Positions 14,385 through 37,581 of a DNA stretch of 64,000 bases are shown here, in pieces (the stretch's first letter is position 1; the number at the start of each line of letters is the position of its first letter). Both the position numbers and the translations under genes were made by a program. This DNA is from Flavobacterium sp. (GTDB lineage: Bacteria > Bacteroidota > Bacteroidia > Flavobacteriales > Flavobacteriaceae). The stretch spans positions 24,881 through 88,880 of the forward strand of contig NZ_JAPZSU010000014.1 in the NCBI RefSeq assembly GCF_027531905.1, in the 5' to 3' direction. A model generated the notes under the pieces. That model saw only the letters and a list, made by a program, of their open reading frames with translations, was not told the origin of the DNA and ran no database searches.

Positions 14385-15299
14385 CTATTTTTTTAAGCAA
14401 TCGCGCAAAGCGAAATCAAGATTCTTAAATTGAAAGCGGAATCCCAAATGCAATAATTTATCATTGGATATTCGTCTTCCGGTAAGGACTAGAACCGACA
14501 TTTCCCCGAGAACCCATTGCAACACAAAAGCTGGAACATTAGGCAACCAAACCGAATAACCATAAATGTAAGCTAGGGTTTTGGAAAAAAGAGTATTTGT
14601 GGTACTATCTTCTATTGCCGCATTGTAAGCGCCTTCCATTGCTTCATTTTCTATCGTTTCAAGATAAATTCCGCACAAATCGTGAATATGAATCCAAGGC
14701 ATGTATTGATTACCAGAACCCAATGCAGAACCGAATCCGTATCGAAAAATTGGAATCATTTTTTGCAAAAATCCTTCATTTTTACCCAAAACCAATCCTG
14801 TTCTCACTTTTACAGTTCGGATACCAAGTGCGGCTATGCTATCAGCGTTTTTTTCCCATTCTAGGCATACTTTACCCAAAAAATCGTGCGCTGCTGGTGA
14901 AGTTTCAGTACAAATTCCTTCGCCATTCAACGCGCCGTAAATTCCGATTCCAGATGCAGAAATAAAAGCTTTAACATTATTCTTCTTTGACTGTAAAACC
15001 GATGCCAATAAAGCAGTAGATTGTACTCTACTATCTAAAATTGCTTTTTTTCGGGTTACCGTCCAACGCTTATCGCCAATGGATTCTCCAGCCAAATGGA
15101 TGATATAGTCGGCATCCAAAACGGCTTTTTCCTCGATGTTGCCAGTAGAAACATCCCAAGTATAATAAGAAATATCTTCCGTGTTCTCCTTTGGTGTTCG
15201 TGTCAATACATTGACTGCATATCCCTTGTTGTGTAACATTTGAGTCAAATATTTCCCAACAAAACCAGTACCTCCTGTCAACAATACCCTCTTTTTCAT
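14385..15299 (-). CDS. TIGR01777 family NAD-dependent epimerase/oxidoreductase (YfcH-like)
   Basis: TGGTGFVG, HLAGESI..KRWT, ISASGIG.YG, VRTGLVL, GSGNQYMPWIHI.D, PAFVL..VLGEMS. Confidence 0.92.
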   Translation of the reverse strand: MKKRVLLTGGTGFVGKYLTQMLHNKGYAVNVLTRTPKENTEDISYYTWDVSTGNIEEKAVLDADYIIHLAGESIGDKRWTVTRKKAILDSRVQSTALLASVLQSKKNNVKAFISASGIGIYGALNGEGICTETSPAAHDFLGKVCLEWEKNADSIAALGIRTVKVRTGLVLGKNEGFLQKMIPIFRYGFGSALGSGNQYMPWIHIHDLCGIYLETIENEAMEGAYNAAIEDSTTNTLFSKTLAYIYGYSVWLPNVPAFVLQWVLGEMSVLVLTGRRISNDKLLHLGFRFQFKNLDFALRDCLKK

Positions 15300-15350
15300 T
15301 TTATTTTTTTTGTGTTATCAAAATAACTTATGCAAACATAGGTTAAAATT

Positions 15351-15382
15351 TTGTTTAACATTATTAATAATAAGTTAAACAA
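15351..15382. promoter_or_regulatory. Palindromic operator TTGTTTA-N18-TAAACAA over the divergent TIGR01777/tetR promoters (putative CarH site)
   Basis: 9-bp arms TTGTTTAAC/GTTAAACAA; same N18 spacing as 37545-37576; -7 TATGTTTG (minus) at 15333-15340. Confidence 0.6.
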
Positions 15383-15417
15383 CAGTATCTTTATACTCTA
15401 ATTTAAACGGAACTAAA

Positions 15418-16080
15418 ATGGCAACTAAAAAAACAGTACTTACCAAAGACAAAATCGTATCATTCTATATGAATCACGTATTGGAAAACAATGAAAAACC
15501 AAAATCGATTTATCAATTTGCTCAGCAAAACGGATTTAGCGAAGCCGAGTTTTATACTTTTTTTGGAACACTTGAAGCTATCGAGAAGGAAATCTTCATT
15601 CAATTTTTTGATAAAACCATCGAATTGCTAGAAAAAAACCCAGCATATGCTAGTTATGAAATGCGTTCCAAACTGTTGAGTTTCTATTTTACTTTCTTTG
15701 AATTGCTTACTGCGAATCGAAGTTATGTTTTATATGCTTTGCAACAGCATAAAAATCAGTTAAAAAACGTAATGATTTTGGCTGATGTTCGTAAAAAATT
15801 CAAAAATTATATAGGTGAAATTACCACAGATGATTTCCGCATTCAAATCGAGCGTTTTCAGGAATACCAAGAAAAAGCGACAACCGAGTCATTATGGATT
15901 CAGTTTTTACTCACCTTAAAGTTTTGGATGGACGACAGTTCCGCTGGATTTGAAAAAACAGACATCTATATCGAAAAATCAGTAAAAGCTGCTTTCGAAT
16001 TAATGAACATTACTCCTATTGAAAGTTTAATCGATTTTGGCAAATTTATTTTCAAAGAAAAAATACAAAAACAAGACTAA
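15418..16080 (+). CDS. TetR-family transcriptional regulator
   Basis: N-terminal HTH-like KPKSIYQFAQQNGFSEAEFYTFFG; C-terminal FWMDD.S..FEKTD.YIEKSV. Confidence 0.8.
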   Translation: MATKKTVLTKDKIVSFYMNHVLENNEKPKSIYQFAQQNGFSEAEFYTFFGTLEAIEKEIFIQFFDKTIELLEKNPAYASYEMRSKLLSFYFTFFELLTANRSYVLYALQQHKNQLKNVMILADVRKKFKNYIGEITTDDFRIQIERFQEYQEKATTESLWIQFLLTLKFWMDDSSAGFEKTDIYIEKSVKAAFELMNITPIESLIDFGKFIFKEKIQKQD

Positions 16081-16154
16081 AAATGCGGTGACTCTCTGCT
16101 TGTTGTAACCAACAACAGCACACAAACCCCTTCATTACAGTAAAAAAAATATAA

Positions 16155-17462
16155 ATGAAAACTATAGACTATATTCCTACTTCAAAGATTGAAAGAGCGA
16201 CCAAATTGGTGCAAACGGGTGCAAAAGTAGGCGTGAATTACCTAAAATATTACGGCGAAAAAATAGTCAACTCAGATTTAACGAGAGATAAACTCAATGA
16301 AGACAATGCCGAAGATATTTATGATGGACTAAAAAGCTTGAAAGGAAGTGCGCTGAAAGTAGCACAAATGCTGAGTATGGACAAAAATTTTCTACCGCAA
16401 GCTTATGTAGAAAAATTTTCATTGTCGCAGTTTTCTGTTCCGCCGCTTTCAGCTCCTTTGGTACTCAAAACCTTCAAATCGAATTTTGGCAAAACCCCTT
16501 ATGAGATTTTTGATGAATTCAATGCCGAATCGGTAAACGCAGCAAGTATTGGTCAAGTGCATTTGGCCAAGAAAAACGGAAAAAAATTGGCCGTAAAAAT
16601 TCAATATCCAGGTGTTGCCAATAGCATTTCTTCGGATTTGGCTTTGGTAAAACCAATGGCGATTCGAATGTTTAATCTACAAGGCAAAGATTCTGATAAA
16701 TACTTTAAAGAAGTAGAGGACAAATTGATTGAAGAAACCAATTATACGCTTGAACTAAAACAGAGTCAAGAAGTAGTCGCTGCCTGCCAAAAGATAGACA
16801 ACTTGGTTTTCCCTGCTTACTATCCTGAATTTTCATCCGAAAAAATCCTGACGATGGATTGGATGACAGGCAAACATTTATCTGAGTTCACTGCTGAAAA
16901 TACCAATCAAGAAACTGCCAACAAAGTGGGACAAGCGCTTTGGGATTTTTATATGTACCAAATTCACGTCTTACGAAAAGTGCACGCCGACCCACATCCT
17001 GGTAACTTTTTGGTAGATAATAACCAACAATTGGTCGCATTGGATTTTGGCTGTATGAAAAGCATTCCGAAGGACTTTTATGTGCCTTACTTTGAATTAA
17101 TCAACAAAGAAATCATCGACAACAAACAGCTTTTTAATGCCAAATTATTTGAACTTGAGATTTTAAGAAAAGAAGACACTCCAGAAGAAATCGCGTATTT
17201 CACGAGTATGTTTTATGACTTGCTATCGCTATTCACTTTGCCATTTCAAAATACACATTTCGATTTTTCGGATGAAGCCTTCTTTAACAATATTGCGCAA
17301 TTGGGCGAGCGATTTGCAAAAGACACCAACCTGCGCAAGATGAATGGTAATCGCGGTTCCAAGCATTTTATTTATATGAACAGAACATTCTTTGGCTTGT
17401 ATAATTTGATGTTTGACCTCAAGGCTTCCATTGCCGTAAATCAATACCAAAACTATTTATAA
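16155..17462 (+). CDS. ABC1/AarF/UbiB-family atypical kinase
   Basis: KGSALKVAQMLS, AASIGQVH, AVKIQYPGV, E.NY..E, HADPHPGN, LDFGCMK. Confidence 0.92.
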   Translation: MKTIDYIPTSKIERATKLVQTGAKVGVNYLKYYGEKIVNSDLTRDKLNEDNAEDIYDGLKSLKGSALKVAQMLSMDKNFLPQAYVEKFSLSQFSVPPLSAPLVLKTFKSNFGKTPYEIFDEFNAESVNAASIGQVHLAKKNGKKLAVKIQYPGVANSISSDLALVKPMAIRMFNLQGKDSDKYFKEVEDKLIEETNYTLELKQSQEVVAACQKIDNLVFPAYYPEFSSEKILTMDWMTGKHLSEFTAENTNQETANKVGQALWDFYMYQIHVLRKVHADPHPGNFLVDNNQQLVALDFGCMKSIPKDFYVPYFELINKEIIDNKQLFNAKLFELEILRKEDTPEEIAYFTSMFYDLLSLFTLPFQNTHFDFSDEAFFNNIAQLGERFAKDTNLRKMNGNRGSKHFIYMNRTFFGLYNLMFDLKASIAVNQYQNYL

Positions 17463-17464
17463 AA

Positions 17465-17620
17465 TTGAAAAAAACGCACTTGCCTTCCAAAATATGCGTG
17501 GTCTGTAATCGCCCTTTTGATTGGAGAAAAAAATGGGAAAAAGTTTGGGACGAAGTAAAATATTGTAGCGAAAAATGCAAAAGAAACAAAAAGGAATCGT
17601 TTGGTTCAAAAATGACCTAA
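17465..17620 (+). CDS. DUF2256 family small Cys protein, 51 aa, not in ORF track
   Basis: TTG start; MKKTHLPSKICVVCNRPFDWRKKWEKVWDEVKYCSEKC is the family hallmark; overlaps cry-DASH start by 46 nt. Confidence 0.88.
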   Translation: MKKTHLPSKICVVCNRPFDWRKKWEKVWDEVKYCSEKCKRNKKESFGSKMT

Positions 17621-18879
17621 GAATCGCGGATAATCCAGCGCTACAACAGGCTATTGCCGAAAATGAAAGCGTCGTTGGAGTCTATTGTTTTGACCCAAAA
17701 CAGTATGCAACCACGGCTTTTGGATTTAAAAAAACGGCACATTTTAGAGCACAGTTTACTATAGAATCGGTTCAAGAATTAAGGGCAAATTTGGCAAGCC
17801 TTGGCATTACGCTTTTGGTGTATCACGATTCGGTTGCGCATGTCATTCCGACTTTGATTGATTCTTCTATCCAAACTGCGATTTACTTTCAAAACGAATG
17901 GACGAGCGAGGAAAAAGTGGAAATCGATAGCCTGAAAAAAAATTGCGGTTCAACTGTAGAATTTGTCGCTACTTATCATCAATTTTTATACCCGCCAGAA
18001 GTCATTCCGTTTGCTATAGCCGAAATACCAGCGGTTTTTACACAATTCAGAAATGCTTGTGAAAAAAAAGCTGTAGTCCCAAAAATTGGCAAGCTAACAG
18101 TTCTACCCGAGTCCAATACAATTGACATACAAACCACAATTCCTACTTTGGAAGATTTAGGATTTACAACATTTGAAGAAGATCGAAGAACTGCTTTTCC
18201 TTTTCGTGGTGGCGAAAATCAAGCTTTAGCAAGAGTGCAAGAATACCTTTGGAACACCCGAAAAATAAGTCAGTACAAACAAACCCGAAATGGATTACTT
18301 GGAACGGATTACAGCTCAAAATTTTCGCCATGGTTGGCCAATGGATGCCTTTCGCCAAAAACCATTTATTGGGAAATTAAGCGCTACGAAAAAGAAGTAG
18401 AAGCTAACGAATCTACCTATTGGTTGATTTTTGAATTGCTTTGGAGGGATTATTTCAAATACATCTCGCTTCAAAACGGCAATGCAATTTTTAAAATTGG
18501 TGGCATTCAAAACCGAGATTATCAATGGTCTCAAGACAACAAAGCAATCCAACAATGGATTAATGGCACTACAGCAGAACCTTTTGTGAATGCCAACATG
18601 CTGGAACTGCAACAAACGGGTTGGATGAGCAACCGCGGACGACAAAATGTAGCTTCTTATTTTGCCAAAACCTTACTCCTAGATTGGAGAATTGGCGCAG
18701 CCTATTTTGAGTCGATGTTATTGGATTATGATGTGCACAGCAATTACGGCAATTGGATGTACGTCTCTGGAGTAGGAAACGATCCCCGCGATAGAAAATT
18801 CAATATCGCTTTGCAAGCCCAAAACTATGATCAACAGTCGAAATTTCAACAACGCTGGTTACAACAACAACTTTTCTAA
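17575..18879 (+). CDS. DASH-family cryptochrome
   Basis: VWFKNDLRIADN, YKQTRNGLLG.DYSSKFSPWLANGCLSP, LLWRDYF, GWMSNRGRQNVAS, DYDVHSNYGNW.Y.SGVGNDPR. Confidence 0.9.
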   Translation: MQKKQKGIVWFKNDLRIADNPALQQAIAENESVVGVYCFDPKQYATTAFGFKKTAHFRAQFTIESVQELRANLASLGITLLVYHDSVAHVIPTLIDSSIQTAIYFQNEWTSEEKVEIDSLKKNCGSTVEFVATYHQFLYPPEVIPFAIAEIPAVFTQFRNACEKKAVVPKIGKLTVLPESNTIDIQTTIPTLEDLGFTTFEEDRRTAFPFRGGENQALARVQEYLWNTRKISQYKQTRNGLLGTDYSSKFSPWLANGCLSPKTIYWEIKRYEKEVEANESTYWLIFELLWRDYFKYISLQNGNAIFKIGGIQNRDYQWSQDNKAIQQWINGTTAEPFVNANMLELQQTGWMSNRGRQNVASYFAKTLLLDWRIGAAYFESMLLDYDVHSNYGNWMYVSGVGNDPRDRKFNIALQAQNYDQQSKFQQRWLQQQLF

Positions 18880-18882
18880 AAG

Positions 18883-20367
18883 ATGAATACCTCTAAAAAA
18901 CATATCAATATTGTCTGGTTCAAAAGAGACCTTCGTTTGCATGACAATGAAGCCCTGTATGCGGCTTTACAACATGAAGAACCTACGCTTTTACTGTATG
19001 TTTTTGAAAAATCGTTGCAAACCGATCCGCACTACAGCGCAAGGCATTGGAATTTCATCAAACAATCTCTCGTAGCGCTCAACACACAATTACTGCCTTA
19101 CAATACAAAAGTTTTGGCTGTAGATGGCGAAGTTATAGGTACTATCAACACTATTTTGGATTTGTACAGCGTCAAAAAAGTATTTTCTCATCAAGAAACA
19201 GGCATCAGAATTACGTACGAAAGAGATAAATCCTTCAAAAGATTTTGCAAAAACAACCAAATTGATTGGGTCGAAAATAGCAACAATGGCATTTTTAGAG
19301 GGCTAAAAAACCGAAGCAATTGGGTGGTGCAATGGGAAAAATATATGAATGAACCGCAATTTGCATTCTTACCAAATGACAATAGCTTTTTAGAATTGCC
19401 CCAAATTGAACAGCTAGAACGCTTGTTAGAAAAGACAAATTTGGTCACCATTCCCGATGCTATTTTTCAAAAAGGAGGGACAGAAATGGGACAGAAATAT
19501 TTAGACTCCTTTTTTAAAAATCGTTATTTCAATTACAGCAATCATATTTCCAAACCTTTACTAGCGAGAAAAAGTTGCAGCAGAATTTCACCTTATATTG
19601 CTTGGGGAAATTTATCTACCCGAGAAGTATTGCAAAAAGCCGCTACATTCCGACAAATTTGTTCGAATAAAAAACAAATTGACAGCTTTGTATCGCGACT
19701 CACTTGGCAAGCCCATTTTATTCAAAAATTTGAAATGGAAGAAATCATGGAGTTTGAGAGCATCAACAAAGGATACCATGATTTACAGAAGAAAATTAAT
19801 TGGAACTATGTCGAAGCTTGGAAAAAAGGACAAACGGGTGTTCCGCTTGTGGATGCATCTATGCGCTGTTTGAACGAAACGGGCTACCTCAACTTTAGAA
19901 TGCGGGCCCTTTTGGTATCGTTTTTTACCCATAACCTTTGGCAACCGTGGCAAGAAGCTACACAACATTTGTCGCAAATGTTTTTGGATTTTGAGCCAGG
20001 CATTCACTACCCGCAATTGCAAATGCAAGCCGGCGAAACGGGTGTCAACTTATTGCGCATTTACAATCCGATTAAAAATAGTTTGGAACACGACCCACAA
20101 GGAGAATTTATCAAACAATGGGTACCTGAGTTACGAAATTTGCCATTGCCTTTCGTTCATCAACCTAGTAAAATGACTTTTTTGGACCAAAAATTCAACA
20201 ACTTCGAACTAGGAAAAGACTATCCAAAACCGATTGTTAATATAGACAGAACTAGAAAATTTGCTTCAGATTATTTATGGAAAATGAAGAAAAACCCATT
20301 GGTTAAAGAAGAAAGTAATCGGATTTTAAAATTACATACCCTAGCCGATATTGGCGATAGCGATTAA
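18883..20367 (+). CDS. Cryptochrome/photolyase family protein (divergent CPD-like, FAD-binding)
   Basis: [54 protein letters not shown]. Confidence 0.9.
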
Positions 20368-25614: not shown

Positions 25615-27825
25615 CTACAACTTTTTCAATTTCAATAGCAAACTATTACTTACCACACTCACGCTGCTAAGCGCCATAGCTGCACCTGCAAGCATTGGGT
25701 TAAGTAAGAAACCATTGAAAGGAAATAAAATACCTGCCGCGATAGGAATCCCAATTACATTGTATATAAAGGCCCAAAATAAGTTTTGGTGAATCATAGC
25801 AACAGTAGCTTTAGACAAGCGAATCGATTGTGGAATCTTATGCAAATCGGAGGTCATTAGCGTCATATTGGCGACTTCCATAGCAATGGCGCTTCCTTTT
25901 CCCATAGCAATACTCACATCGGCTTGAGCCAATGCGGTGCTGTCATTTATGCCGTCACCCACCATCGCTACTTTTTTGCCTTGAGCTTGTAATTCCTTGA
26001 TGAAATCGGCTTTTTGTTGAGGTAACACTCCGCCTTTGTAATGAGTAATTCCCGTTTGTTCGGCCATTGCGTGGGCTGCTTTTTCAGTATCGCCGGTTAG
26101 CATATAGACCGCAATGCCCATTTGTTCCAACTCACGAATCGCAGCCACCGAAGTAGGTTTTACCGCATCCGAAATGGCCAAAAGGGCTAAAACACTAGTT
26201 GCATTAGCAAAGCCAATTACGGTTTTGGCTTCGGCTTCCCAAGCAGTACTTTTTTGAAGGAAGTCATCGTTTATTTCGATTTGGTTGGCTTTTAAAAAAG
26301 AGGGATTCCCGATAAAATACTCCTCACCTCCTACTTTGGCTCGAACGCCTTGCCCCGTAACACTCTCGAAATTCGCAATTGGAACCGTTGGAACTCCTTG
26401 TAAATGTTGCACCACAGCTTCCGCCAAGGGATGTTCCGATTGCGATTCGATACTCAACAAAATAGAACGTAAATTGGAATCCTTGCTATTCCACAATTCC
26501 TCGGTTACTTTAGGTTTTCCTTCGGTGATGGTACCTGTTTTATCTAGAACAATGGTGTCTATCTTTTGTGCCAATTCTAAACTCAGTGCATCTTTGATGA
26601 GAATTCCATTTTCGGCACCCTTGCCTACTCCAACCATAATGGCAGTAGGAGTTGCCAATCCCAAGGCACACGGACAAGCAATCACCAAAACAGTAACTAA
26701 AGCCAAAATTCCTTGTGTAAAACCATTTTCTCCTCCTAAAATCCACCACAAAACAAAAGCTACAACCGCAATCGCCATAACCACAGGCACAAAAATACTA
26801 GCGATAAAATCGACCTTTTTTTGGACTGGCGCTTTACTTCCTTGTGCGTCTTGGACTGTTTTGACGATGTGTGCCAAAAGGGTTTCGGAGCCAATTTGAA
26901 CTGCTTGGAATACCAAACTCCCTTTTTGGTTGAGTGTTCCCGCCCAAACCTTTTCATTTGCCATTTTGAGTACAGGAATGGGTTCGCCACTTAACATACT
27001 TTCATCTACATAGGAATCCCCACTTATTACGACCCCATCGACCGCAATTCGCTCGCCGGGTTTTACCAACAATTTATCCCCTACTTTGACTTGGGCAATA
27101 GGAATTACTTTTTGTTGCTCGTTGTCTAGCCACAAAGTCACCTCATTAGGTTGCAACGCCATCAACTTTTTTATGGCGGTGGAAGTATTGGATTTGGCGT
27201 TTTCTTCCAACCATTTACCCAATAAAATAAAAGCAATCACTACTGCTGCTGCTTCAAAATAGACGTGTCCGTGTAGGCCTTTTTGATGCCAATACTCTGG
27301 AAATAATGTATTGAATACACTAAATATATACGCGACTCCCGTACTCAATGCCACGAGTGTGTCCATATTGGCTGTGCGATGTTGAGCTTGCTTCCAAGCA
27401 TTTACAAAAAAACTACTTCCTAATCCGAAAACAACTGGAGTTGCTAATACCCACATAATTTCGTTAGCATAGGGCATTTCCATAAAAAACATTCCAATAA
27501 TTACAATAGGCAAAGCCAATAGCAAAGCCCAAATGGTTTTGTTTTTTAAAGTGGTCATTTTTTCTTCTTGTATCGAAGCCAAGGTTTTGTTTTCGTTGGC
27601 TTCTTCTTCAATAAACAAATCATAGCCTGCGTCTTGCACCGCTTTTTGGACTTCGGATAGGGTAATAATTTTGGGCAGGAACTCAAGGGAAAGCATAGCC
27701 GAAGCATAGTTGACTTCGGCTGAAACAATCCCATTTAAGACTTGAACTGAAGAAGCGATTTTATTGGCGCAAGACGCACATCCCATTTGTAAAACGGGAA
27801 TTTGTCTCTTTATAGTAGTTTTCAT
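25615..27825 (-). CDS. copA: Cu(I)-translocating P1B-type ATPase
   Basis: HMA MGCASC, TGEP-like LSGEP, IACPCALGLA, DKTGT, SEHPLA, GDGIND, YN/MxxSS P1B-1 motifs. Confidence 0.93.
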   Translation of the reverse strand: MKTTIKRQIPVLQMGCASCANKIASSVQVLNGIVSAEVNYASAMLSLEFLPKIITLSEVQKAVQDAGYDLFIEEEANENKTLASIQEEKMTTLKNKTIWALLLALPIVIIGMFFMEMPYANEIMWVLATPVVFGLGSSFFVNAWKQAQHRTANMDTLVALSTGVAYIFSVFNTLFPEYWHQKGLHGHVYFEAAAVVIAFILLGKWLEENAKSNTSTAIKKLMALQPNEVTLWLDNEQQKVIPIAQVKVGDKLLVKPGERIAVDGVVISGDSYVDESMLSGEPIPVLKMANEKVWAGTLNQKGSLVFQAVQIGSETLLAHIVKTVQDAQGSKAPVQKKVDFIASIFVPVVMAIAVVAFVLWWILGGENGFTQGILALVTVLVIACPCALGLATPTAIMVGVGKGAENGILIKDALSLELAQKIDTIVLDKTGTITEGKPKVTEELWNSKDSNLRSILLSIESQSEHPLAEAVVQHLQGVPTVPIANFESVTGQGVRAKVGGEEYFIGNPSFLKANQIEINDDFLQKSTAWEAEAKTVIGFANATSVLALLAISDAVKPTSVAAIRELEQMGIAVYMLTGDTEKAAHAMAEQTGITHYKGGVLPQQKADFIKELQAQGKKVAMVGDGINDSTALAQADVSIAMGKGSAIAMEVANMTLMTSDLHKIPQSIRLSKATVAMIHQNLFWAFIYNVIGIPIAAGILFPFNGFLLNPMLAGAAMALSSVSVVSNSLLLKLKKL

Positions 27826-28528: not shown

Positions 28529-30775
28529 TTAATAATTCAAATTAATTCCAAATCCAAGCCCCATATCACTATCATAGTGTGTAGTAATACCAAAATTCCT
28601 TCCGGTAATATAGCGTAATCCTGCCATATACTCTTTATCCGTATTCCACATCACATTCATTCGTAAGCGTTTCGAAATTGGGATATCCTTTCGTTCTAAT
28701 TGTAGTCGAACATTTCCATCCGAATACACTTCAGTTTGTAGTTTTACCAACATAGGTAATACATATTCTATTCCCAAACTTACTACAGAACGGTTATCTT
28801 TTGTATTAGATTGTCCGAACAGATTTTTTTCCTGTTGTCCTAAATTCATTTTTCTGTATCTCCAATCAAATCCAACAAAGGGCATTATCCACTGCATTTT
28901 ACCCAAGTACCGCCCAACATGTGTTTCTGTTTCATACCCATGATGATCGTTGTATCCCAATCTCCATTCGGTTCCAATGCTCCATCGTGTATTACTAAAC
29001 ATGGCTTCTCCATCGTTTCCATTGGTTGCAAAATCATTTTCTGCCATAAAATGAAACTTTCTATCCTCGGCAAACAATTGCTTTTGCGCCAATTTAGGAT
29101 TGGGAATCAAAGGATTTGCAGCCTGATTCTCATAAGTAAAAACCCTACCCATTCCTGCCATCATGTGGTACAAGATATGACAATGAAAAAACCAATCTCC
29201 TTCCACATTAGCATTAAATTCCAACGTATCTGTTTCCATTGGCATGATATCAACCACATTTTTCAAAGGAGCATAATCACCTTGATTGTTAAGTAACCTA
29301 AAATCATGACCATGCAAATGCATTGGATGTCTCATCATGGATCCATTATAAATGGTAATCCGAACGTTTTCTCCCTTTTTAATCAATATTTTATCGGTTT
29401 CAGAAACTACTTTATTATTTAAGCTCCATACGTACCGATTCATATTTCCAGTAAGTTCAAAACGCAATTCTTTTACTGGAGCATCCTTGGGCAAACTAGT
29501 TTTCCAAGGTGATTTTAACATAGCATAATTGAGCGTTACAATATCGGAAAGGGCATTACTATCATAGTCACTTTCAGACATATTCATAGTCTTTTTACTC
29601 GTAGCTTTTTTTGCTTCACCCGTAATTTCAGGATACATTACTACATTCATATCCATTTGATTCAAACTCATGCTCATTCCCATATCATCTAAATCCCCAT
29701 TCATTTTCATCATACCATTCATCATTTTCATTCCCTCAAAATACTTTAATTTAGGTAATGGTTTGGCTAATTGCTTTGGGCCATTTCCTAAATACAATGA
29801 AGTTGATTTCGTTCTGTCTTCAGCGGTTGCCAAAAATTCGTAGGACGCTCCATCATTTGGTATAGTAACTACTACATCGTAGGTTTCAGAAACAGCTATA
29901 AGCAAGCGATCCACCTCGATAGGTTCAACATCATTTCCGTCGTTAGCCACAACTGTTATTTTTCCGCCAGCATAAGTTAGCCAAAAATAAGTAGAAGCGC
30001 CTCCATTTGAAATGCGTAAGCGTACTTTATCACCGGCCTTGAATTGCGATAATTGCGTTTCCTTTTTACCATTAATTAAAAAAGCATCATAGAAAACATC
30101 GCTTACATCCATAGCGTTCATGCGCTTCCATTCATTATTCAATTTAGTACCAAAGTGTCCTTGGTTAATTGCTTCAGCATAACTTTGAGTAGTCCCTTTT
30201 TTTATAGCAAACCAATCGGTCGCATTATGCAACATTCTATGCACATTATTAGGATTGATATCGGTCCACTCACTTAAAATAATGGGTACAGTAGGCAGAT
30301 TATCTATTCCATCTCTAAACCGCTCATCCGTCGAACGCTTTTTCAAAACCATTGATCCATACATTCCTATTTGCTCTTGTAAACCTGAATGGCTGTGATA
30401 CCAATGGGTTCCGTTTTGTATAATGGGAAAAGTATATTTGTGTGTGGTATTAGGAGCAATTGGCATTTGAGTCAAATTGGGAACACCATCTTCTTGGTTG
30501 GGCAAAAACAAACCGTGCCAATGCAAAGAGGTGGATTCCTTTAGCTCATTATGCACATAAATTTCTGCAATATCCCCTTCGGTAAAAGTTAAAGTCGGCA
30601 TTGGAATTTGACCGTTTACTGCAATAGCTCTCTTGGGGTTACCGGTAAAATTGACTACAGTATCACGAACATACAAATCATATCGAACCACATTTTGAGC
30701 AAAACTTAAAACTGAAAACAGCATTAACAGTAAAGAGACTTTCAGTAGCCTCATCCTTTTTTTTATATCTATCAT
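28529..30775 (-). CDS. Multicopper oxidase (CopA/PcoA-like) with Met-rich insert and C-terminal CopB-like beta region
   Basis: HWHG, WYHSH, HPMHLHGH, HCHILYHM copper ligands; MKMMNGMMKM segment; ~170-aa beta-rich tail. Confidence 0.92.
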   Translation of the reverse strand: MIDIKKRMRLLKVSLLLMLFSVLSFAQNVVRYDLYVRDTVVNFTGNPKRAIAVNGQIPMPTLTFTEGDIAEIYVHNELKESTSLHWHGLFLPNQEDGVPNLTQMPIAPNTTHKYTFPIIQNGTHWYHSHSGLQEQIGMYGSMVLKKRSTDERFRDGIDNLPTVPIILSEWTDINPNNVHRMLHNATDWFAIKKGTTQSYAEAINQGHFGTKLNNEWKRMNAMDVSDVFYDAFLINGKKETQLSQFKAGDKVRLRISNGGASTYFWLTYAGGKITVVANDGNDVEPIEVDRLLIAVSETYDVVVTIPNDGASYEFLATAEDRTKSTSLYLGNGPKQLAKPLPKLKYFEGMKMMNGMMKMNGDLDDMGMSMSLNQMDMNVVMYPEITGEAKKATSKKTMNMSESDYDSNALSDIVTLNYAMLKSPWKTSLPKDAPVKELRFELTGNMNRYVWSLNNKVVSETDKILIKKGENVRITIYNGSMMRHPMHLHGHDFRLLNNQGDYAPLKNVVDIMPMETDTLEFNANVEGDWFFHCHILYHMMAGMGRVFTYENQAANPLIPNPKLAQKQLFAEDRKFHFMAENDFATNGNDGEAMFSNTRWSIGTEWRLGYNDHHGYETETHVGRYLGKMQWIMPFVGFDWRYRKMNLGQQEKNLFGQSNTKDNRSVVSLGIEYVLPMLVKLQTEVYSDGNVRLQLERKDIPISKRLRMNVMWNTDKEYMAGLRYITGRNFGITTHYDSDMGLGFGINLNY

Positions 30776-31931: not shown

Positions 31932-33227
31932 TCACTTCAAAATTCCCGCTTTATACCTTGCAATGGCACGATCTCTTGCCATAGCGTGTTCGACCATAGG
32001 TGCGCCGTAGCCTAAGTCAAATTCAGGTATCCATTTTCGAATGTAGTGGCCTTTAGAATCAAATTTTTGTAATTGAATATCAGGATTAAACACTCTAAAA
32101 TAAGGAGCAGCATCGCAACCTGTACCGGCAGCCCATTGCCAATTACCTACATTGGCAGACAAATCATAGTCTAAGAGCTTTTGAGCGAAATAGGCTTCGC
32201 CCCATTGCCAAGGCAATAACAAATGCTTACACAAAAAGCTTGCTACCACCATACGCACTCGATTGTGCATATAGCCTGTCGCATTGAGTTCACGCATACC
32301 AGCATCGACCATTGGATAACCTGTAGTTCCTGAACACCAACGTTGAAAATCGTCTTGGTCATTGCGCCATTCTATGCCGTCGTAGGCCGATTTAAAATTG
32401 TGTTGCACTACTTTGGGGAAATGATACAGGATTTGCATAAAAAATTCTCTCCAAATGAGTTCACTCAAGAAAACATCATTTTTTCGTGCGGCCCAATTCA
32501 CTAATTTACGAACACTAACGGTACCAAATCGCAAATGTGGAGATAAATATGAGGTAGTATCTAATGCGGGAAAATCACGCGTTTCGTGATAGGTAACAAT
32601 TTTAGTCAAATTATGGGGTTTGACTTTGATGGCACTGGCTTCAAAACCAATAGCAGACAAAGCAGGAAATGCAAAAGTACTTACCAACCAATTCTTAGAA
32701 AAAACAGTAGTATCATATTCCACAACGGGAGCTAGTGTACGATATTTTTCTAACCATTTGTTTTTATAAGGCGTGTAAACGGTGTAAGGCAAACCATCAG
32801 CTTTGGTGATTTCGGCTTCTTCAAAAATGACTTGGTCTTTGAATGCCTGCACTTTTATCCCATTTTGAGCTAACAATTCGGTAATCTCTTGGTCTCTTTT
32901 TATAGCATAGGGTTCGTAATCTTTATTGTAAAAGACTTCTTTGATATCAAATTCAGACAACAATTGTTGCCAAACTTCGTGTGTTTTTCCTTTTTTTACT
33001 AAAAGAGAACTGCCCAATTCGACTAATTTTTCGTTGATTTTCGAAAGTGATTCGTAGATAAAAGTGACTCTAGCATCGTCTTTAGGCAAATGCTCCAAAA
33101 TGGCATCATCAAAAATAAAAAGAGGAAGTACTGGATAGCCACTTTGTAACGCCTGATACAAGCTTACATTATCTTCTAACCGCAAATCGCGACGAAACCA
33201 AAAAAAAGTAATAGGCTGCGCAGTCAT
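31932..33227 (-). CDS. phrB: Class I CPD deoxyribodipyrimidine photolyase
   Basis: FWFRRDLRLEDN, TSYLSPHLRFG, ELIWREF, GYMHNRVRM, DYDLSANVGNWQW.AG.G.DAAPYFR. Confidence 0.93.
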   Translation of the reverse strand: MTAQPITFFWFRRDLRLEDNVSLYQALQSGYPVLPLFIFDDAILEHLPKDDARVTFIYESLSKINEKLVELGSSLLVKKGKTHEVWQQLLSEFDIKEVFYNKDYEPYAIKRDQEITELLAQNGIKVQAFKDQVIFEEAEITKADGLPYTVYTPYKNKWLEKYRTLAPVVEYDTTVFSKNWLVSTFAFPALSAIGFEASAIKVKPHNLTKIVTYHETRDFPALDTTSYLSPHLRFGTVSVRKLVNWAARKNDVFLSELIWREFFMQILYHFPKVVQHNFKSAYDGIEWRNDQDDFQRWCSGTTGYPMVDAGMRELNATGYMHNRVRMVVASFLCKHLLLPWQWGEAYFAQKLLDYDLSANVGNWQWAAGTGCDAAPYFRVFNPDIQLQKFDSKGHYIRKWIPEFDLGYGAPMVEHAMARDRAIARYKAGILK

Positions 33228-33688
33228 TATTTGGTATTAAAAAGTTCATCTACGGCTTTTTCTCGATAAGAGAATATTTCTTTTAACTTGCTTTTGACCA
33301 CAAGAGTGTTCATAATGCGACCCAAAAAACCAAGAGGAAGGGCGTAATGAACAACATCCGTCATTTTTACTCCGTTTTCAGTAGCTTCAAAGAAATGTTT
33401 GTGGTGCCATAATGTATAAGGTCCAAAACGTTGCTCGTCTATAAAATAGCTTTTGTCTTTTACGGCAGTAATGATGGTCATCCAACTGAGTTTTATTCCT
33501 GCTAAAGGCGACACTTTGTATTGTATCACTTGACCAGGATAAGCGGTTCTTCCGTCGAAATCTACGATTTGAAACCCCATATCCAGAGGCGTAATTTTTT
33601 GCAGATTTTGTGGACTAGAGAAAAAATCCCAACATTCGTCCAATTTAGCGTTTACATGTTGAACGGTTTCTAATTTATATACTTTCAT
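33227..33688 (-). CDS. SRPBCC/START-fold family protein
   Basis: WDFFSSP.NL..ITP, FIDEQRFGPY..WHHKH.F, M.D.VHY.LP.G.LG. Confidence 0.88.
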   Translation of the reverse strand: MKVYKLETVQHVNAKLDECWDFFSSPQNLQKITPLDMGFQIVDFDGRTAYPGQVIQYKVSPLAGIKLSWMTIITAVKDKSYFIDEQRFGPYTLWHHKHFFEATENGVKMTDVVHYALPLGFLGRIMNTLVVKSKLKEIFSYREKAVDELFNTK

Positions 33689-33719
33689 AATATTTGCAAT
33701 AAATGATGTTGATTTCCCT

Positions 33720-33850
33720 GCGTGAGGGGTAGTAATGGAGCTCTTGTTGTAGTGGCGATAAAGGCCACTACAACAAAGCGGGAATGGATGACCCGACCCC
33801 CGATTGGAGAATGGTGTCGGTAGTATATTCGTGTTTCGGGGGGCACGCCC
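33720..33850 (-). ncRNA. GC-rich multi-stem intergenic element (GGGCGTGCCCC...GGGGTCGGG...CCCTCACGC type)
   Basis: Terminal GCGTG/CACGC pairing, CCCCCGA/TCGGGGG stem, perfect 13-bp TTGTTGTAGTGGC hairpin (33744-33776); resembles a Bacteroidota repeat/RNA class (Acido-Lenti-1-like, from memory). Confidence 0.45.
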
Positions 33851-33855
33851 AAAAA

Positions 33856-34296
33856 CTACATTTTATAATATTTGAAGGGTACGAATAGCATTCCGAAACA
33901 TTCGCCGTGTTCTTTGCCTAAATGTTTGTGGTGTACTTTGTGGGCTTTTCTGAGTCCGATTAGGTATTTGTTGTTGGTGTTTTTGAACCACTTGAAGCGT
34001 TGATGAATCAAAACATCGTGAATTAAAAAGTAGCAAATACCGTAAAAAAGGATGCCAAGACCGATGAAAAACTTGTAATTGAGGCCGCCCTCTACGCCAT
34101 AGTAAAAAAGAATGATGCTAGGAATGGCAAAAATGACAAAGAAAATATCGTTACGTTCAAAGATATTAGCATATTTTGGCTGATGGTGGTCGGCGTGAAA
34201 ATACCACATAAAACCGTGCATCACGAACTTATGTGTACACCAAGTGACGCACTCCATAAAAAGAAAAACTCCTAGAAATATGAAAAAATTAAGCAT
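33856..34296 (-). CDS. crtZ: Beta-carotene hydroxylase
   Basis: His boxes HKFVMHG, HADHH, HDVLIHQR, HKVHH; FERND; located in crt operon. Confidence 0.93.
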   Translation of the reverse strand: MLNFFIFLGVFLFMECVTWCTHKFVMHGFMWYFHADHHQPKYANIFERNDIFFVIFAIPSIILFYYGVEGGLNYKFFIGLGILFYGICYFLIHDVLIHQRFKWFKNTNNKYLIGLRKAHKVHHKHLGKEHGECFGMLFVPFKYYKM

Positions 34297-34321
34297 TTTT
34301 GAATGAATTTGAAATGAAATA

Positions 34322-35161
34322 TTAAACTAATCGCAACTTGTAGGTTACGAAAGATTGGGCCAATAATCCCGCTTTGGAATAATTCGAAACGCGTATTCTT
34401 GATGTGCCGATTTTGTGTGAAGGAGTACGCTCTAACTTGTTCAATAGTTTTTTGTAATACACATAGGCTGTAAAAACACCAAATTTTGCTTCAAGCGGTA
34501 ATTTCTTGATGCCTTCTCTTGCTGCTTTAAAATCCTCATCAATTTCAGCAATAATTGCTTTTTTTGCTTCATCATCAAAAGAACGAAGGTCTACTCCTGG
34601 AAAATAATTGCGATTCAAAACCAGATTGTCGTCTTTTAAATCTCTTAAGAAATTTACTTTTTGAAAAGCAGAACCTAAGCGCATTGCTTCGTCTTTGAGA
34701 GCATCGTATTTTTCTTGATTGCCTTGTACAAAAACCTTAAGACACATTAAACCAACCACATCAGCGGAACCGTAAATGTAATCATCGTATTCGGCCTTAG
34801 TATTATACTCTGATTTTACTAGGTCCATTTTCATACTTTTTAGAAAAGCTTGTACCAAATCATCAGAAATATTGTTCTTTTTTACAGTGATTTGAAAGGC
34901 ATTCAGAATAGGATTCAAACTAATTCCTGATTCCAATGCTTTGTAATAATCGGTTTCAAAATCTTGAATCAATTGTTCTTTTTGATATCCGTGAAAAGAG
35001 TCAACAATTTCGTCAGCAAAGCGGACAAAACCATATATATTATAGATATCTTCTCGAATACTTGGCGCTAGCATTTTTACGGCCAAAGAGAAAGAAGTAC
35101 TATAGCTTTTGGTAACTAACTTACTACACTTAAAAGATACATCATCAAATAATTGCTTCAT
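34322..35161 (-). CDS. crtB: Phytoene synthase
   Basis: YSTSFS, YGFVRFADEIVD, YIYGSADVVGLM, LGSAFQKVNFLRD. Confidence 0.95.
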   Translation of the reverse strand: MKQLFDDVSFKCSKLVTKSYSTSFSLAVKMLAPSIREDIYNIYGFVRFADEIVDSFHGYQKEQLIQDFETDYYKALESGISLNPILNAFQITVKKNNISDDLVQAFLKSMKMDLVKSEYNTKAEYDDYIYGSADVVGLMCLKVFVQGNQEKYDALKDEAMRLGSAFQKVNFLRDLKDDNLVLNRNYFPGVDLRSFDDEAKKAIIAEIDEDFKAAREGIKKLPLEAKFGVFTAYVYYKKLLNKLERTPSHKIGTSRIRVSNYSKAGLLAQSFVTYKLRLV

Positions 35162-35164
35162 AAT

Positions 35165-36631
35165 TTACGCTTCTGAATTTTTTTTATTAATTAACTCTGA
35201 TACTAACTTTCCTGAAATTAATGCAGGTGGAACGCCTGGTCCTGGCACTGTTAATTGTCCAGTGAAATATAAATTGTTTACTTTTTTACTTTTCAATTTT
35301 GGTCTCAAAAAAGCCGTTTGGAGTAGCGTATTGGCCATACCGTAAGCATTTCCTTTATATGAATTATACTCTGAAACAAAATCATTTTTACAAAATGATT
35401 GTTTAAATATAATATTATTTTTTACAGTTTGTTGCGTAAGTTGCTCAAAACGAGCAATTATTTTATCAAAATATTGTTCTCTCAATTCCTCAGAGTCATT
35501 AATTCCGGGTGCCAAGGGTACCAAAAAGAAAGCAGATTCCATACCCTCTGGTGCCGCGGTCGGGTCTGTAAGAGAAGGGAAATTGGCATAAAACAAAGGC
35601 TCTTTTGGCCATTGTGGTTCATCGTAAATATCTTTTGCGTGTTGGTAAAAATCAACATCAAAGAATAAAGCGTGATGCGAAATATTTTCTATTTTTTTTT
35701 CAAAACCTACATAAAACAATAATGAGGAAGGTGCAAAGACACGACTTTCCCAATACGCTTCTGAGTAAGCTCGATACTCTTTGTCCAATAAAGTTTCGGT
35801 ATGATGATAATCGGCACCACTTAGCACTACATCAGAAGTAATCGTTTGTCCGTTGATAACAACAGCTTTGGCTGTTTTGTTTTCGACTACTATTTTTTCG
35901 ATGGCTGCATTGGTAACAAATTTAACTCCCAACTCTCTAGCTAGACTTTCCATAGCTAAAACTACATCAAACATTCCTGTTTTGGGATGCCAAGTGCCTA
36001 AACCAAAATCGGCATAATTCATAAAACTGTAAAACGAAGGTGTATCGGAAGGTTTAGCCCCTAAAAAAAGAACCGGAAACTCTAGAATCTGAATCAGTCT
36101 TGGATTGGTAAACTTTTTACGAACATCTCTGCTGATGTTGCTAAAAAATTGTCCAACTTTTTTGGCCGTTTTAGTAGTTACTAACTCTAATGGTGATACT
36201 CCTGGTCGGTACACCAAATCCTTGATGGCAATATCATAATTGCTTTGGGCTTCTGCCATAAAAGCTCTGAGGACTTTACCACTTCCTTTTTCTATAGCTT
36301 CGAAAGTTTGGGCAATTTCGTCTAAATTATCAGCTATAGCAATAAAATCATTGATTCCAAAATACACTCGGTAGGCTGGAGATAGTTTGATTAGCTCATA
36401 GTAATCGGTAGTTTTTTTTCCAAAATCGGCAAAAAAACGTTCGAAAATATCGGGCATCCAATACCAACTCGGGCCCATATCAAAAGTAAAACCAACGGCT
36501 TTCATCTGCCTTGCTCTTCCGCCAATTGTTGCATTTTTCTCAAAAATAGTAACATCGTGGCCACTTTGGGCCAAATAACAAGAGGCGGATAAAGCAGAAA
36601 AACCGGAACCAATAATTGTGATTTTTTTCAT
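35165..36631 (-). CDS. crtI: Phytoene desaturase
   Basis: IGSGFSAL, FDMGPSWYWMPD, NLYFTGQLTVPGPGVPP. Confidence 0.93.
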   Translation of the reverse strand: MKKITIIGSGFSALSASCYLAQSGHDVTIFEKNATIGGRARQMKAVGFTFDMGPSWYWMPDIFERFFADFGKKTTDYYELIKLSPAYRVYFGINDFIAIADNLDEIAQTFEAIEKGSGKVLRAFMAEAQSNYDIAIKDLVYRPGVSPLELVTTKTAKKVGQFFSNISRDVRKKFTNPRLIQILEFPVLFLGAKPSDTPSFYSFMNYADFGLGTWHPKTGMFDVVLAMESLARELGVKFVTNAAIEKIVVENKTAKAVVINGQTITSDVVLSGADYHHTETLLDKEYRAYSEAYWESRVFAPSSLLFYVGFEKKIENISHHALFFDVDFYQHAKDIYDEPQWPKEPLFYANFPSLTDPTAAPEGMESAFFLVPLAPGINDSEELREQYFDKIIARFEQLTQQTVKNNIIFKQSFCKNDFVSEYNSYKGNAYGMANTLLQTAFLRPKLKSKKVNNLYFTGQLTVPGPGVPPALISGKLVSELINKKNSEA

Positions 36632-36655: not shown

Positions 36656-37552
36656 TTAAATTGCGTCTACTAATTCTGTTATGGATTGAAAAATATGCGT
36701 TTCAGAGGCAATTTTATCTCTATCAATGTTCTCAACCAATCGACCAATAAACCACAATTGCGTTCCATCGCCCAACAACTCCGACTCCATCGTCGAAATA
36801 TAATTATCAATCGCTTCGCGGTCTGGCTGAACTGTCATATATGTAATGTATACAATAGGTTCAAAATTGTTTTTCAACACCTTCAGATTGTCAATTGGCA
36901 TGCTTTCGCCCAAATAAACCGTTTTGTAGCCTTGCAACAAAATTTCGTAATGCAAATACATCAAACCTAGCTCATGAATTTCATTCATTGGCAAAGACAA
37001 TACAAATACTTTACCATGATGTTGTACAGGCTGCGTTTGTAATTGCTCAATATTAATTAGTAATTTTTGTTTAATCAAATAGCTCACAAAATGCTCATGT
37101 GCTGGTGTAATAGTGTCGGTTTGCCATAATAAACCCAATTCATTCATCAAAGGAACAAACACTTGTAAAAAAACCTCTTTGAATGTTTTTTTTGCAATTA
37201 ACCAATCGTACGTTTTAAAAAACAAATCTTGGTCAAAATTCATCATTGCCATTTTAAAATCACTAATTGCGTGATTATTGGCATTTTTGGTAGTGATTAT
37301 CTCACGTACCAATGAGGGATTTTTTTCTTCTGAGTAGGTAGCAATCTTGGATATTTTGTACCCATAATCATGAAGCAAAGTTATGTTTAGTAACTTTTGA
37401 AGACTTTGAAGGTCATATAAACGAATATTAGTATCTGTTCGCATAGGTTGCAAAACATTGTATCGTTTTTCCCAAATACGAATCGTATGTGCTTTAATCC
37501 CTGAGAGGTTTTCTAGGTCTTTGATGCTGAATACATTTTTAATATTGTTCAT
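36656..37552 (-). CDS. carH: MerR-type cobalamin-binding photoreceptor repressor (CarH/LitR family)
   Basis: MerR HTH (SIKDLENLSGIKAHTIRIWEKRY); W-x9-EH (WQTDTITPAHEH); ExHxxG (EIHELG); heads the crt operon. Confidence 0.88.
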   Translation of the reverse strand: MNNIKNVFSIKDLENLSGIKAHTIRIWEKRYNVLQPMRTDTNIRLYDLQSLQKLLNITLLHDYGYKISKIATYSEEKNPSLVREIITTKNANNHAISDFKMAMMNFDQDLFFKTYDWLIAKKTFKEVFLQVFVPLMNELGLLWQTDTITPAHEHFVSYLIKQKLLINIEQLQTQPVQHHGKVFVLSLPMNEIHELGLMYLHYEILLQGYKTVYLGESMPIDNLKVLKNNFEPIVYITYMTVQPDREAIDNYISTMESELLGDGTQLWFIGRLVENIDRDKIASETHIFQSITELVDAI

Positions 37553-37581
37553 TGTTTTTCAAAATTTATTAAACAAAAGTA
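37545..37581 (-). promoter_or_regulatory. carH/crt promoter (-7 TACTTTTG 37574-37581) overlapped by TTGTTCA-N18-TAAACAA
   Basis: Same arms and spacing as 15351-15382; overlaps the -7 element and the start codon. Confidence 0.6.

What the first reader, a model, noticed from the sequence alone, without database searches (positions are those of the whole stretch)
15351..15382. Shared TTGTTYA-N18-TAAACAA operator links two distant light-response operons: candidate Flavobacterium CarH box
Seen: TTGTTTA-N18-TAAACAA (15351-15382) lies over the divergent TIGR01777 / tetR-ABC1-cry promoters. TTGTTCA-N18-TAAACAA (37545-37576) overlaps the -7 element and start codon of carH-crtIBZ-SRPBCC-phrB. The arms match at 13/14 positions and the spacing is identical, 22 kb apart. 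Established: CarH/CarA operators in Thermus and Myxococcus are built from TnnACA half-sites and block the promoter in the dark; each arm here contains a TnnACA. Inference: CarH represses both arms, defining a ~20-gene photoregulon whose operator geometry (inverted, N18) differs from the 11-bp direct-repeat arrays described elsewhere.
Basis: partly seen in the sequence, partly recalled or inferred. Interest (0 to 1): 0.7.

Follow-up and report, generated by a model that had tools for sequence, protein, structure and literature searches.

The report
Conserved light-response operator of Bacteroidia CarH
The two matching palindromes are real copies of a widely conserved DNA switch, TTGTTTAA-N16-TTAAACAA, that sits on the promoters of light-induced genes (carotenoids, photolyases, proteorhodopsin, repair enzymes) and is most likely bound by the vitamin-B12 light sensor CarH, which would explain how these bacteria switch on their light response.

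Summary
Both sites are exact. The true consensus is TTGTTTAA-N16-TTAAACAA.

This Flavobacterium genome has exactly five such operators. Besides the two in the window, they lie at blh/proteorhodopsin, at msrA-folE and at a flavin-reductase-like gene.

Across 301 genera of the family, the perfect palindrome occurs in 199 of 226 genomes with the CarH ortholog. It occurs in 3 of 56 without one, all three fragmentary assemblies. TetR presence makes no difference.

Other supporting results:
- The carH start codon lies inside one operator arm in 77 of 78 Flavobacterium species and in 10 other genera.
- The operator overlaps the Bacteroidetes -7 box in three fixed registers.
- It lies upstream of proteorhodopsin in 26 of 30 genera and of tetR in 32 of 33.
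- It extends across the class Bacteroidia. A divergent CarH subclass goes with a changed half-site (TAGACA).
- The predicted regulon matches the light-induced genes reported for Dokdonia MED134.

Half-sites keep the CarH TnnACA signature but are inverted, 22 bp apart. Published CarH operators are tandem 11-bp direct repeats, so I call this a new variant of a known kind. I found no prior description in the open literature searched.

The parts
15351..15382 (.). Operator 1, a perfect TTGTTTAA-N16-TTAAACAA palindrome between the divergent SDR and tetR promoters
   Evidence: An orthologous operator lies 28-38 nt before tetR in 32 of 33 CarH-ortholog genomes.
37545..37576 (.). Operator 2 (TTGTTCAT...TTAAACAA; 2 mismatches to the 16-nt consensus). 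It covers the carH 5' leader and start codon.
   Evidence: The same register is found in 77 of 78 Flavobacterium species and in 10 other genera.
37574..37581 (-). carH -7 box TACTTTTG (Bacteroidetes TAnnTTTG). Its TTG forms the first 3 nt of the operator.
   Evidence: Read from the sequence. Register -4 holds in all 11 carH promoters examined.
15386..15393 (+). Likely tetR -7 box TATCTTTA (one mismatch to TAnnTTTG), 3 nt downstream of operator 1
   Evidence: Read from the sequence. Exact boxes sit at register 37 in two other genera.
15333..15340 (-). -7 box TATGTTTG of the divergent SDR gene, 10 nt from operator 1
   Evidence: Read from the sequence; register 43.
36656..37552 (-). carH: MerR-type DNA-binding domain plus B12-binding module, 298 aa
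   Evidence: Pfam MerR_1 and B12-binding_2. Best PDB match is Thermus CarH 5C8D, with Wx9EH and ExHExG conserved.
31932..36631 (-). Genes downstream of carH: crtI (35165-36631), crtB (34322-35161), crtZ-like (33856-34296), a 153-aa ORF (33227-33688) and a photolyase (31932-33227)
   Evidence: Pfam. The carH-crtI-crtB-crtZ order recurs beside the operator in 12-15 genera. No second operator is present in this genome.
15418..20367 (+). tetR (15418-16080), ABC1 kinase (16155-17462), cryptochrome/photolyase (17575-18879) and photolyase (18883-20367)
   Evidence: Pfam. tetR-ABC1 follows the operator in 4 of 20 genomes sampled and in 32 of 33 tetR loci.
14385..15299 (-). Divergent NAD-dependent epimerase/DUF1731 (TIGR01777-like SDR) gene
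   Evidence: Pfam. The operator ends 51 nt before its ATG.

Best explanation
The 32-bp palindrome TTGTTTAA-N16-TTAAACAA is the operator of the CarH-type AdoCbl photoreceptor-repressor of Bacteroidia. In the dark, B12-loaded CarH is inferred to bind two inverted TnnACA half-sites that lie 22 bp apart, on one face of the helix. It thereby covers the -7 box, the transcription start or the -33 region of its target promoters and keeps RNA polymerase off. Light is inferred to break the Co-C bond of AdoCbl, release CarH and switch the genes on. In this Flavobacterium five operators control these units:
- carH-crtIBZ-photolyase (autoregulated)
- tetR-ABC1-cryptochrome-photolyase together with the divergent SDR gene
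- blh and proteorhodopsin
- msrA-folE
- a flavin-reductase-like gene
What is shown: the motif, its conservation, its position on promoters and its link to CarH. What is inferred: binding, repression in the dark, and dependence on B12 and light.
For: (1) The motif is far beyond chance, with one sharp spacing preference and exactly five sites in the genome.
(2) In 301 genera of the family there are 895 loose sites against 123 for the reversed control. The perfect palindrome is in 199 of 226 genomes with the CarH ortholog and in 3 of 56 without one; those three are 81-93% complete and one holds a CarH fragment.
(3) The rate is the same with TetR (149/169) and without it (50/57). Genomes with TetR but no CarH lack the site.
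(4) Across the class, 92 of 95 genomes with the motif have a CarH homolog, and perfect sites lie within about 300 bp of carH in many families.
(5) The carH ATG lies inside the distal arm in 11 genera and in 77 of 78 Flavobacterium species.
(6) The divergent CarH subclass goes with the variant TTGTCTAA-N16-TTAGACAA: 8 sites against 0 control, including a site over its own ATG.
(7) The half-site keeps the family's TnnACA, and the hexamers are 22 bp = 2 x 11 bp apart, which equals the DR1-DR3 distance of the Thermus operator.
(8) The -7 boxes fall at registers -4, 17 or 37-43 relative to the operator, always overlapping or abutting it.
(9) The operator is upstream of proteorhodopsin in 26 of 30 genera and of tetR in 32 of 33.
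(10) The genes light-induced in Dokdonia MED134 are PR, crtB, crtI, a MerR regulator, photolyases, the cry operon, MsrA and an adhesion lipoprotein. This equals the predicted regulon.
(11) CarH keeps Wx9EH and the His ligand, and the genome has a PduO-type adenosyltransferase.
Against: No binding, expression or B12 experiment exists for this protein. Co-occurrence cannot separate CarH from another factor that is always inherited with it. The operator is an inverted repeat, whereas every characterised CarH operator is a set of tandem direct repeats, so how the protein docks is unknown. 27 of 226 CarH-ortholog genomes lack a perfect site; most still have near-perfect ones, and four have no loose match either. 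The genomes are related, so the counts overstate independence. The Dokdonia genome could not be scanned by name, so the match of regulon to expression is by gene function, not by locus.
Confidence: 0.85

Rival explanations
1. The site at 15351-15382 is the operator of the adjacent TetR-family regulator, and its likeness to the carH site is coincidental or reflects TetR control of both.
For: TetR regulators usually bind palindromes in their own promoter region. The site lies 35 nt upstream of tetR, and that position is conserved.
Against: The perfect motif is equally frequent in CarH-ortholog genomes with TetR (149/169) and without it (50/57). It is missing from the two CarH-lacking genomes whose tetR upstream was examined (G079, G210), and complete TetR-positive, CarH-negative genomes have no perfect site. 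The same motif sits on carH, crtI, proteorhodopsin, msrA and fasciclin promoters far from any tetR. A 32-bp site with half-sites 22 bp apart is atypical for TetR.
Confidence: 0.03
2. Another, unidentified DNA-binding protein that is co-inherited with CarH binds the palindrome, for example a partner of a BLUF, LOV or cryptochrome sensor. CarH would then act elsewhere or only on crt genes.
For: Co-occurrence would also hold for any gene tightly linked to the light regulon. The inverted geometry does not match known CarH operators.
Against: The operator is fused to the carH start codon in two CarH subclasses. The half-site changes together with the CarH subclass. The half-site carries the CarH-family TnnACA at 2 x 11 bp spacing. 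No other regulator gene recurs next to the sites.
Confidence: 0.08
3. The motif is a promoter for an alternative (ECF-type, light-responsive) sigma factor, or CarH works as a classical MerR-type activator that remodels the promoter spacer.
For: MerR-family proteins are typically activators. In Streptomyces and Myxococcus, light regulons use ECF sigma factors (own knowledge).
Against: The motif is a symmetric palindrome and lies at three different registers relative to good housekeeping -7 boxes. These include +1 to +30 on carH and upstream of the -33 region on tetR. That is incompatible with a fixed promoter element or with a MerR-type site between the -35 and -10 elements. Divergent genes share a single copy.
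Confidence: 0.03
4. The palindrome acts as an RNA hairpin in the leaders, or the match is chance in AT-rich intergenic DNA.
For: The left site folds better than shuffles as RNA (-8.2 kcal/mol, z = -3.2).
Against: The carH site does not fold better than shuffles (-1.9 kcal/mol, z = 0.38). In registers 17 and 37-43 the site is wholly or partly untranscribed. The spacers are not conserved. Chance is excluded.
Confidence: 0.01

Closest known systems
CarH of Thermus thermophilus (PDB 5C8D/5C8E) and CarH of Bacillus megaterium with their operators
   Same: Same domain plan: a MerR-type DNA-binding domain followed by a B12-binding module, with Wx9EH and the His lower ligand conserved. The gene sits next to crt genes and is autoregulated. 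The operator overlaps core promoter elements. The half-site contains TnnACA with 11-bp phasing.
   Different: The known operators are three or four tandem 11-bp direct repeats nnnnTnnACAn. Here there are two inverted 8-bp arms 22 bp apart with no central repeat. Protein identity is low (E = 3e-14 to 5C8D). The regulon is much wider and includes proteorhodopsin/blh, cry/photolyase, msrA-folE, fasciclin proteins and HtpG.
CarA/CarH operator at Pcrt of Myxococcus xanthus and other Myxococcales
   Same: A large operator over the promoter of a carotenoid cluster that contains the regulator gene. Plasticity of operator design has been documented, and inverted repeats were once proposed there.
   Different: The myxobacterial inverted repeats degenerate between species and the proteins are now held to read direct repeats. 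Here the inverted arms are the conserved part across a whole class.
LitR of Streptomyces and Bacillus (class I LitR/CarH family)
   Same: An AdoCbl-dependent, light-released repressor of carotenoid genes.
   Different: In Streptomyces LitR acts through an ECF sigma factor (LitS). Here the operator sits directly on every target promoter and no sigma factor gene is linked.
Light-induced gene set of Dokdonia sp. MED134 (bioRxiv 10.1101/2023.12.25.573297)
   Same: The set comprises PR, crtB, crtI, a MerR-family regulator, photolyases, the cry-DASH operon, MsrA and an adhesion lipoprotein. These are the same functions as the operons that carry the operator here and in other genera.
   Different: That work reports expression only. 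No regulator or operator is proposed, and I could not scan that genome by name.

Membership tests
CarH/LitR class I (AdoCbl photoreceptor repressors): the protein at 36656-37552 | N-terminal MerR-type winged-helix DNA-binding domain | tested here: met
   Pfam MerR_1 E = 1.4e-13, residues 8-75. Aligns to the DNA-binding domain of Thermus CarH.
CarH/LitR class I (AdoCbl photoreceptor repressors): the protein at 36656-37552 | Four-helix-bundle cap with the Wx9EH motif over the upper ligand | tested here: met
   Pfam B12-binding_2 E = 5.6e-9. W-QTDTITPAH-EH aligns with W-HRGEIGVAE-EH of 5C8D. Conserved in 12 orthologs and in the divergent subclass.
CarH/LitR class I (AdoCbl photoreceptor repressors): the protein at 36656-37552 | Rossmann-type B12-binding domain with His lower axial ligand in (D/E)xHxxG | tested here: met
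   EIHELG aligns with ERHEIG of 5C8D. The Pfam B12-binding model itself did not pass E = 0.001.
CarH/LitR class I (AdoCbl photoreceptor repressors): the protein at 36656-37552 | AdoCbl-dependent oligomerisation and DNA binding in the dark, lost in light | not testable with these tools
   Needs purified protein. Only the supply side was checked: a PduO-type adenosyltransferase is present in the genome.
Canonical CarH operator architecture | Three or four tandem 11-bp direct repeats nnnnTnnACAn | tested here: not met
   Two inverted arms. The logo of 71 sites shows no central or flanking ACA repeat. The definition is taken from PMC9304148.
Canonical CarH operator architecture | Half-site TnnACA with helical (11-bp) phasing | tested here: met
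   TAAACA on each strand, centres 22 bp apart. The variant TAGACA in the divergent subclass keeps T..ACA.
Canonical CarH operator architecture | Operator overlaps core promoter elements of crt genes and of the regulator's own gene | tested here: met
   -7 box registers -4, 17 and 37-43. Sites are present at carH and crtI.
TetR-family operator (for 15351-15382) | Presence of the site depends on the cognate TetR gene | tested here: not met
   The motif is present in 50 of 57 CarH-positive, TetR-negative genomes. It is absent upstream of tetR in CarH-negative genomes.
MerR-type activator site | Palindrome centred in an over-long spacer between the -35 and -10 elements at a fixed position | tested here: not met
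   There are three different registers, including one fully downstream of the -7 box.

The most novel reading that the evidence does not exclude
One head-to-tail CarH dimer binds each palindrome symmetrically with two DNA-binding domains. That leaves the other two domains of the tetramer free to capture a second operator. This would explain the recurrent operator pairs: 43 bp apart in mnmA-fasciclin regions and about 935 bp apart on either side of carH, implying looping or cooperative repression. It would also make vitamin B12 supply a gate on proteorhodopsin phototrophy and photoprotection across Bacteroidia, since without B12 there would be no dark repression.
Probability: 0.3. Interest if true: 0.88.

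Novelty: new variant of a known kind. Interest (0 to 1): 0.78.

Why it matters
Light induction of proteorhodopsin, carotenoid and photolyase genes in marine and freshwater flavobacteria has been measured many times. No regulator or operator was named for it in the papers I could search.

A 32-bp operator that predicts the light regulon in most genomes searched across 301 genera of the family makes that question directly testable with one protein and a few oligonucleotides. It ties phototrophy and photoprotection in a dominant group of aquatic bacteria to vitamin B12. It also shows that CarH-type sensors can read inverted half-sites, which widens the known plasticity of their DNA recognition. 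Finally, it offers a compact, well-defined operator for B12- and green-light-controlled expression tools in Bacteroidota.

Tried and rejected
- **Third window match.** The match at 27587 (1 mismatch) lies inside the ORF 25615-27825 and is chance.
- **Loose hits in genomes without CarH.** Those in G234 and G005 have GC-rich spacers and non-canonical arms, and disappear with the 16-nt pattern.
- **TetR as binder.** Rejected by the contingency table.
- **RNA hairpin.** Rejected.
- **Promoter and terminator scan.** The sigma-70 style scan was uninformative for this phylum: 29 promoter-like sites found against 29.5 expected.
- **Literature.** The search for the motif letters themselves returned only unrelated hits. 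Kimura et al. 2011 is not held.
- **Other sites in this genome.** CobA-type adenosyltransferase was not found. No further operator is present anywhere in the genome, so no separate one lies upstream of DUF2805-SDR (20616) or SDR-DUF2867 (21814). Their membership in the regulon is therefore open.

Full report
**Observation**

The left site is a perfect TTGTTTAA-N16-TTAAACAA. It lies between an NAD-epimerase/DUF1731 gene (14385-15299, minus strand) and the run tetR-ABC1-cryptochrome-photolyase (15418-20367). The right site, TTGTTCAT-N16-TTAAACAA, covers the start codon of a MerR/B12-binding gene (36656-37552, minus strand), which is followed by crtI, crtB, a crtZ-like gene and a photolyase.

In the whole genome (3.36 Mb, 35% GC) the loose pattern occurs 5 times at spacing 18. 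At every other spacing from 0 to 40 it occurs 0-3 times, mostly 0. The 16-position form has three perfect copies at N16 and none at spacings 10-22. A weight matrix trained only on sites from other genomes scores the five sites at 32-36 bits, and the next best position in the genome scores 20. The third window match (27587) is inside an ORF and is chance.

**The other three operators in this genome**

- One lies between a beta-carotene dioxygenase gene (blh, Pfam BCD) and a proteorhodopsin gene (Bac_rhodopsin).
- One lies 22 nt before msrA, which is followed by folE.
- One lies 23 nt before a flavin-reductase-like gene.

So the pair in the window belongs to a five-operator set whose genes nearly all deal with light.

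**Conservation**

In 301 genomes, about one per genus of the same family, the loose pattern gives 895 sites against 123 for the reversed control. The perfect palindrome is found in 205 genomes, with about 10 control hits in all.

A search with the window's CarH splits the genomes into three groups:

| CarH status | Genomes | With perfect palindrome |
|---|---|---|
| Ortholog (E < 1e-55) | 226 | 199 |
| Only a divergent MerR-B12 protein (E 1e-38 to 1e-46) | 19 | 3 |
| None | 56 | 3 |

The three exceptions in the last group are assemblies that are 81-93% complete, and one of them holds a CarH fragment. The loose hits in complete genomes without CarH are non-canonical.

The TetR ortholog is present in 187 genomes. 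The frequency of the palindrome is the same with TetR (149/169) and without it (50/57) when CarH is present, and near nil when CarH is absent. That removes TetR as the binder.

Across the class (251 genomes, 72 families), 95 genomes have the perfect site and 92 of these have a CarH homolog. In many families the site lies within about 300 bp of carH. The genomes are related, so these counts are not independent trials. Even so, the pattern holds across many families.

**Anatomy**

I fetched 60 loci around 72 sites in 20 genera. A logo of 71 canonical sites shows the following beyond the searched letters:
- T at positions -1 and 0, and A at position 8.
- Strictly A/T at positions 11-13 and 20-22.
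- No central or flanking ACA element.

The TnnACA hexamers of the two arms are on opposite strands, with centres 22 bp apart.

The Bacteroidetes -7 box (TAnnTTTG) falls at three registers:
- **Register -4.** The TTG of the box is the start of the operator. This holds for all 11 carH promoters, with the ATG at operator positions 25-27.
- **Register 17.** The box abuts the distal arm. This is seen at crtI, fasciclin, mevalonate kinase and msrA, and at register 16 for proteorhodopsin.
- **Registers 37-43.** The operator lies over the -33 region. This is seen at tetR, blh, the SDR gene and the flavin reductase-like gene.

In the window the boxes are TACTTTTG (37581-37574), TATGTTTG (15340-15333, minus strand) and the one-mismatch TATCTTTA (15386-15393).

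Among 78 distinct Flavobacterium carH upstream regions, 77 carry the site in the same register. Conservation falls away about 45 nt upstream of the ATG. Those records also identify the window as Flavobacterium, close to F. succinicans.

**Regulon**

These gene families recur next to the sites:
- carH-crtI-crtB-crtZ(-crtY).
- A second operator directly before crtI (9 genera).
- Fasciclin-domain proteins (13 genera), often divergent from mnmA and sometimes with two operators 43 bp apart.
- tetR-ABC1, HtpG, mevalonate kinase-UbiA, msrA-folE and PR/blh.

Two targeted tests followed. Of the 30 best proteorhodopsin loci from 30 genera, 26 have an operator with at most 2 mismatches (13 perfect) within 260 nt upstream. 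Windows that miss the operator typically give a best match with 5-6 mismatches.

Of 33 tetR loci in CarH-ortholog genomes, 32 have the operator 28-38 nt before tetR, usually as TTGTTTAA-N16-TTAAACAT. The two CarH-negative genomes have none. The focal site at 15351-15382 is therefore one of the most conserved members of the set.

**Co-variation**

In genomes that hold only the divergent CarH subclass, the tetR operator reads TTGTCTAA...TTAGACAA. That variant gives 8 sites against 0 control in five such genomes. The divergent carH genes have their own ATG inside a TTAGACATG arm.

The two subclasses differ in the presumed recognition region (RIWEKRY against RKWETRY), while both keep Wx9EH and ExHExG. 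The sample is small, but this is the kind of regulator-site co-variation expected if CarH reads the site.

**Independent expression data**

In Dokdonia sp. MED134, a member of the same family, these genes were reported as induced by light, most of them at all four temperatures tested:
- proteorhodopsin, crtB and crtI
- a MerR-family regulator
- a class I photolyase
- a blue-light regulator
- methionine sulfoxide reductase
- a three-gene cry-DASH/photolyase operon
- an extracellular lipoprotein with adhesion domains

(bioRxiv 10.1101/2023.12.25.573297.) This is the same list of functions as the operator-bearing operons. I could not scan that genome by name, so the match is by function only.

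**Mechanism**

The protein is a CarH by its defining sequence features, and the genome can make AdoCbl from cobalamin. The operator always overlaps or abuts core promoter elements, and on carH it lies downstream of the -7 box. This fits a repressor and not a MerR-type activator or a sigma-factor promoter.

Known CarH operators are three or four tandem 11-bp repeats nnnnTnnACAn, bound on one face of the DNA. In Thermus one head-to-tail dimer contacts DR1 and DR3, which are 22 bp apart (PMC9304148). Here the same half-site signature and the same 22-bp distance are kept, but the arms are inverted.

I infer that one two-fold-symmetric CarH dimer reads each palindrome. Whether the active form is a tetramer, and whether paired operators are bridged, is open. 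Binding, dark repression, and release by light and B12 are all inferred, not shown.

**Rivals and novelty**

TetR, an RNA hairpin, an alternative-sigma promoter and chance are each contradicted by the data (and 9/14/73). An unknown co-inherited binder cannot be formally excluded, but the autoregulatory position and the co-variation argue against it.

None of the searches of the held library aimed at the operator, or at a link between CarH and proteorhodopsin, found a description of either. A genome paper on Dokdonia discusses the proteorhodopsin promoter only in terms of the RpoD consensus. Subscription literature was not searchable. I therefore rate this a new variant of a known kind.

Noticed in passing
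G000 C28:78733-80483 (outside the window): This Flavobacterium carries a proteorhodopsin gene and a divergent blh gene that share one perfect operator. The -7 box TAAATTTG lies inside the spacer.
   Followed up: yes
L017, L028, L044, L057 (mnmA-fasciclin intergenic regions): Two operators lie in tandem, start to start 43 bp apart (about four helical turns), between mnmA and a fasciclin-domain gene. Fasciclin proteins are the commonest target of the operator, and their role in a light response is unexplained.
   Followed up: partly
L002, L009, L021, L024, L027, L035, L043, L049: The crtI start codon begins within 1 nt of the operator end, only 9-10 nt after the -7 box. These transcripts would be leaderless or nearly so. 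In the window's genome this second operator is missing and carH-crtI are 24 bp apart.
   Followed up: partly
G127, G032, G087, G296 (L211-L214): A divergent CarH subclass (35-38% identity) pairs with a TAGACA half-site variant of the same geometry. Several extra TTAGACAA/TTGGACAA copies lie upstream of its gene.
   Followed up: partly
window 15359-15374: The spacer of the left operator holds an inner palindrome (ATTATTAATAAT), so the whole site folds at -8.2 kcal/mol (z = -3.2). Orthologous spacers differ, so this looks local.
   Followed up: partly
L011, L050, L054 versus window 14385-15299: In three other genera the gene divergent from tetR across the operator is htpG. In this genome it is a TIGR01777-like SDR instead.
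   Followed up: no
window 37612-38571 and 28529-30775: A KirBac-like inward-rectifier potassium channel gene lies directly upstream of carH on the same strand. A 748-aa multicopper oxidase with a DUF3347 neighbour lies downstream of the carH operon. Neither has an operator.
   Followed up: no
G000 C1:1942-3741: A 599-aa protein with no Pfam match lies downstream of the operator-controlled flavin-reductase-like gene and may be co-transcribed with it. That would make it an uncharacterised candidate member of the light regulon.
   Followed up: no
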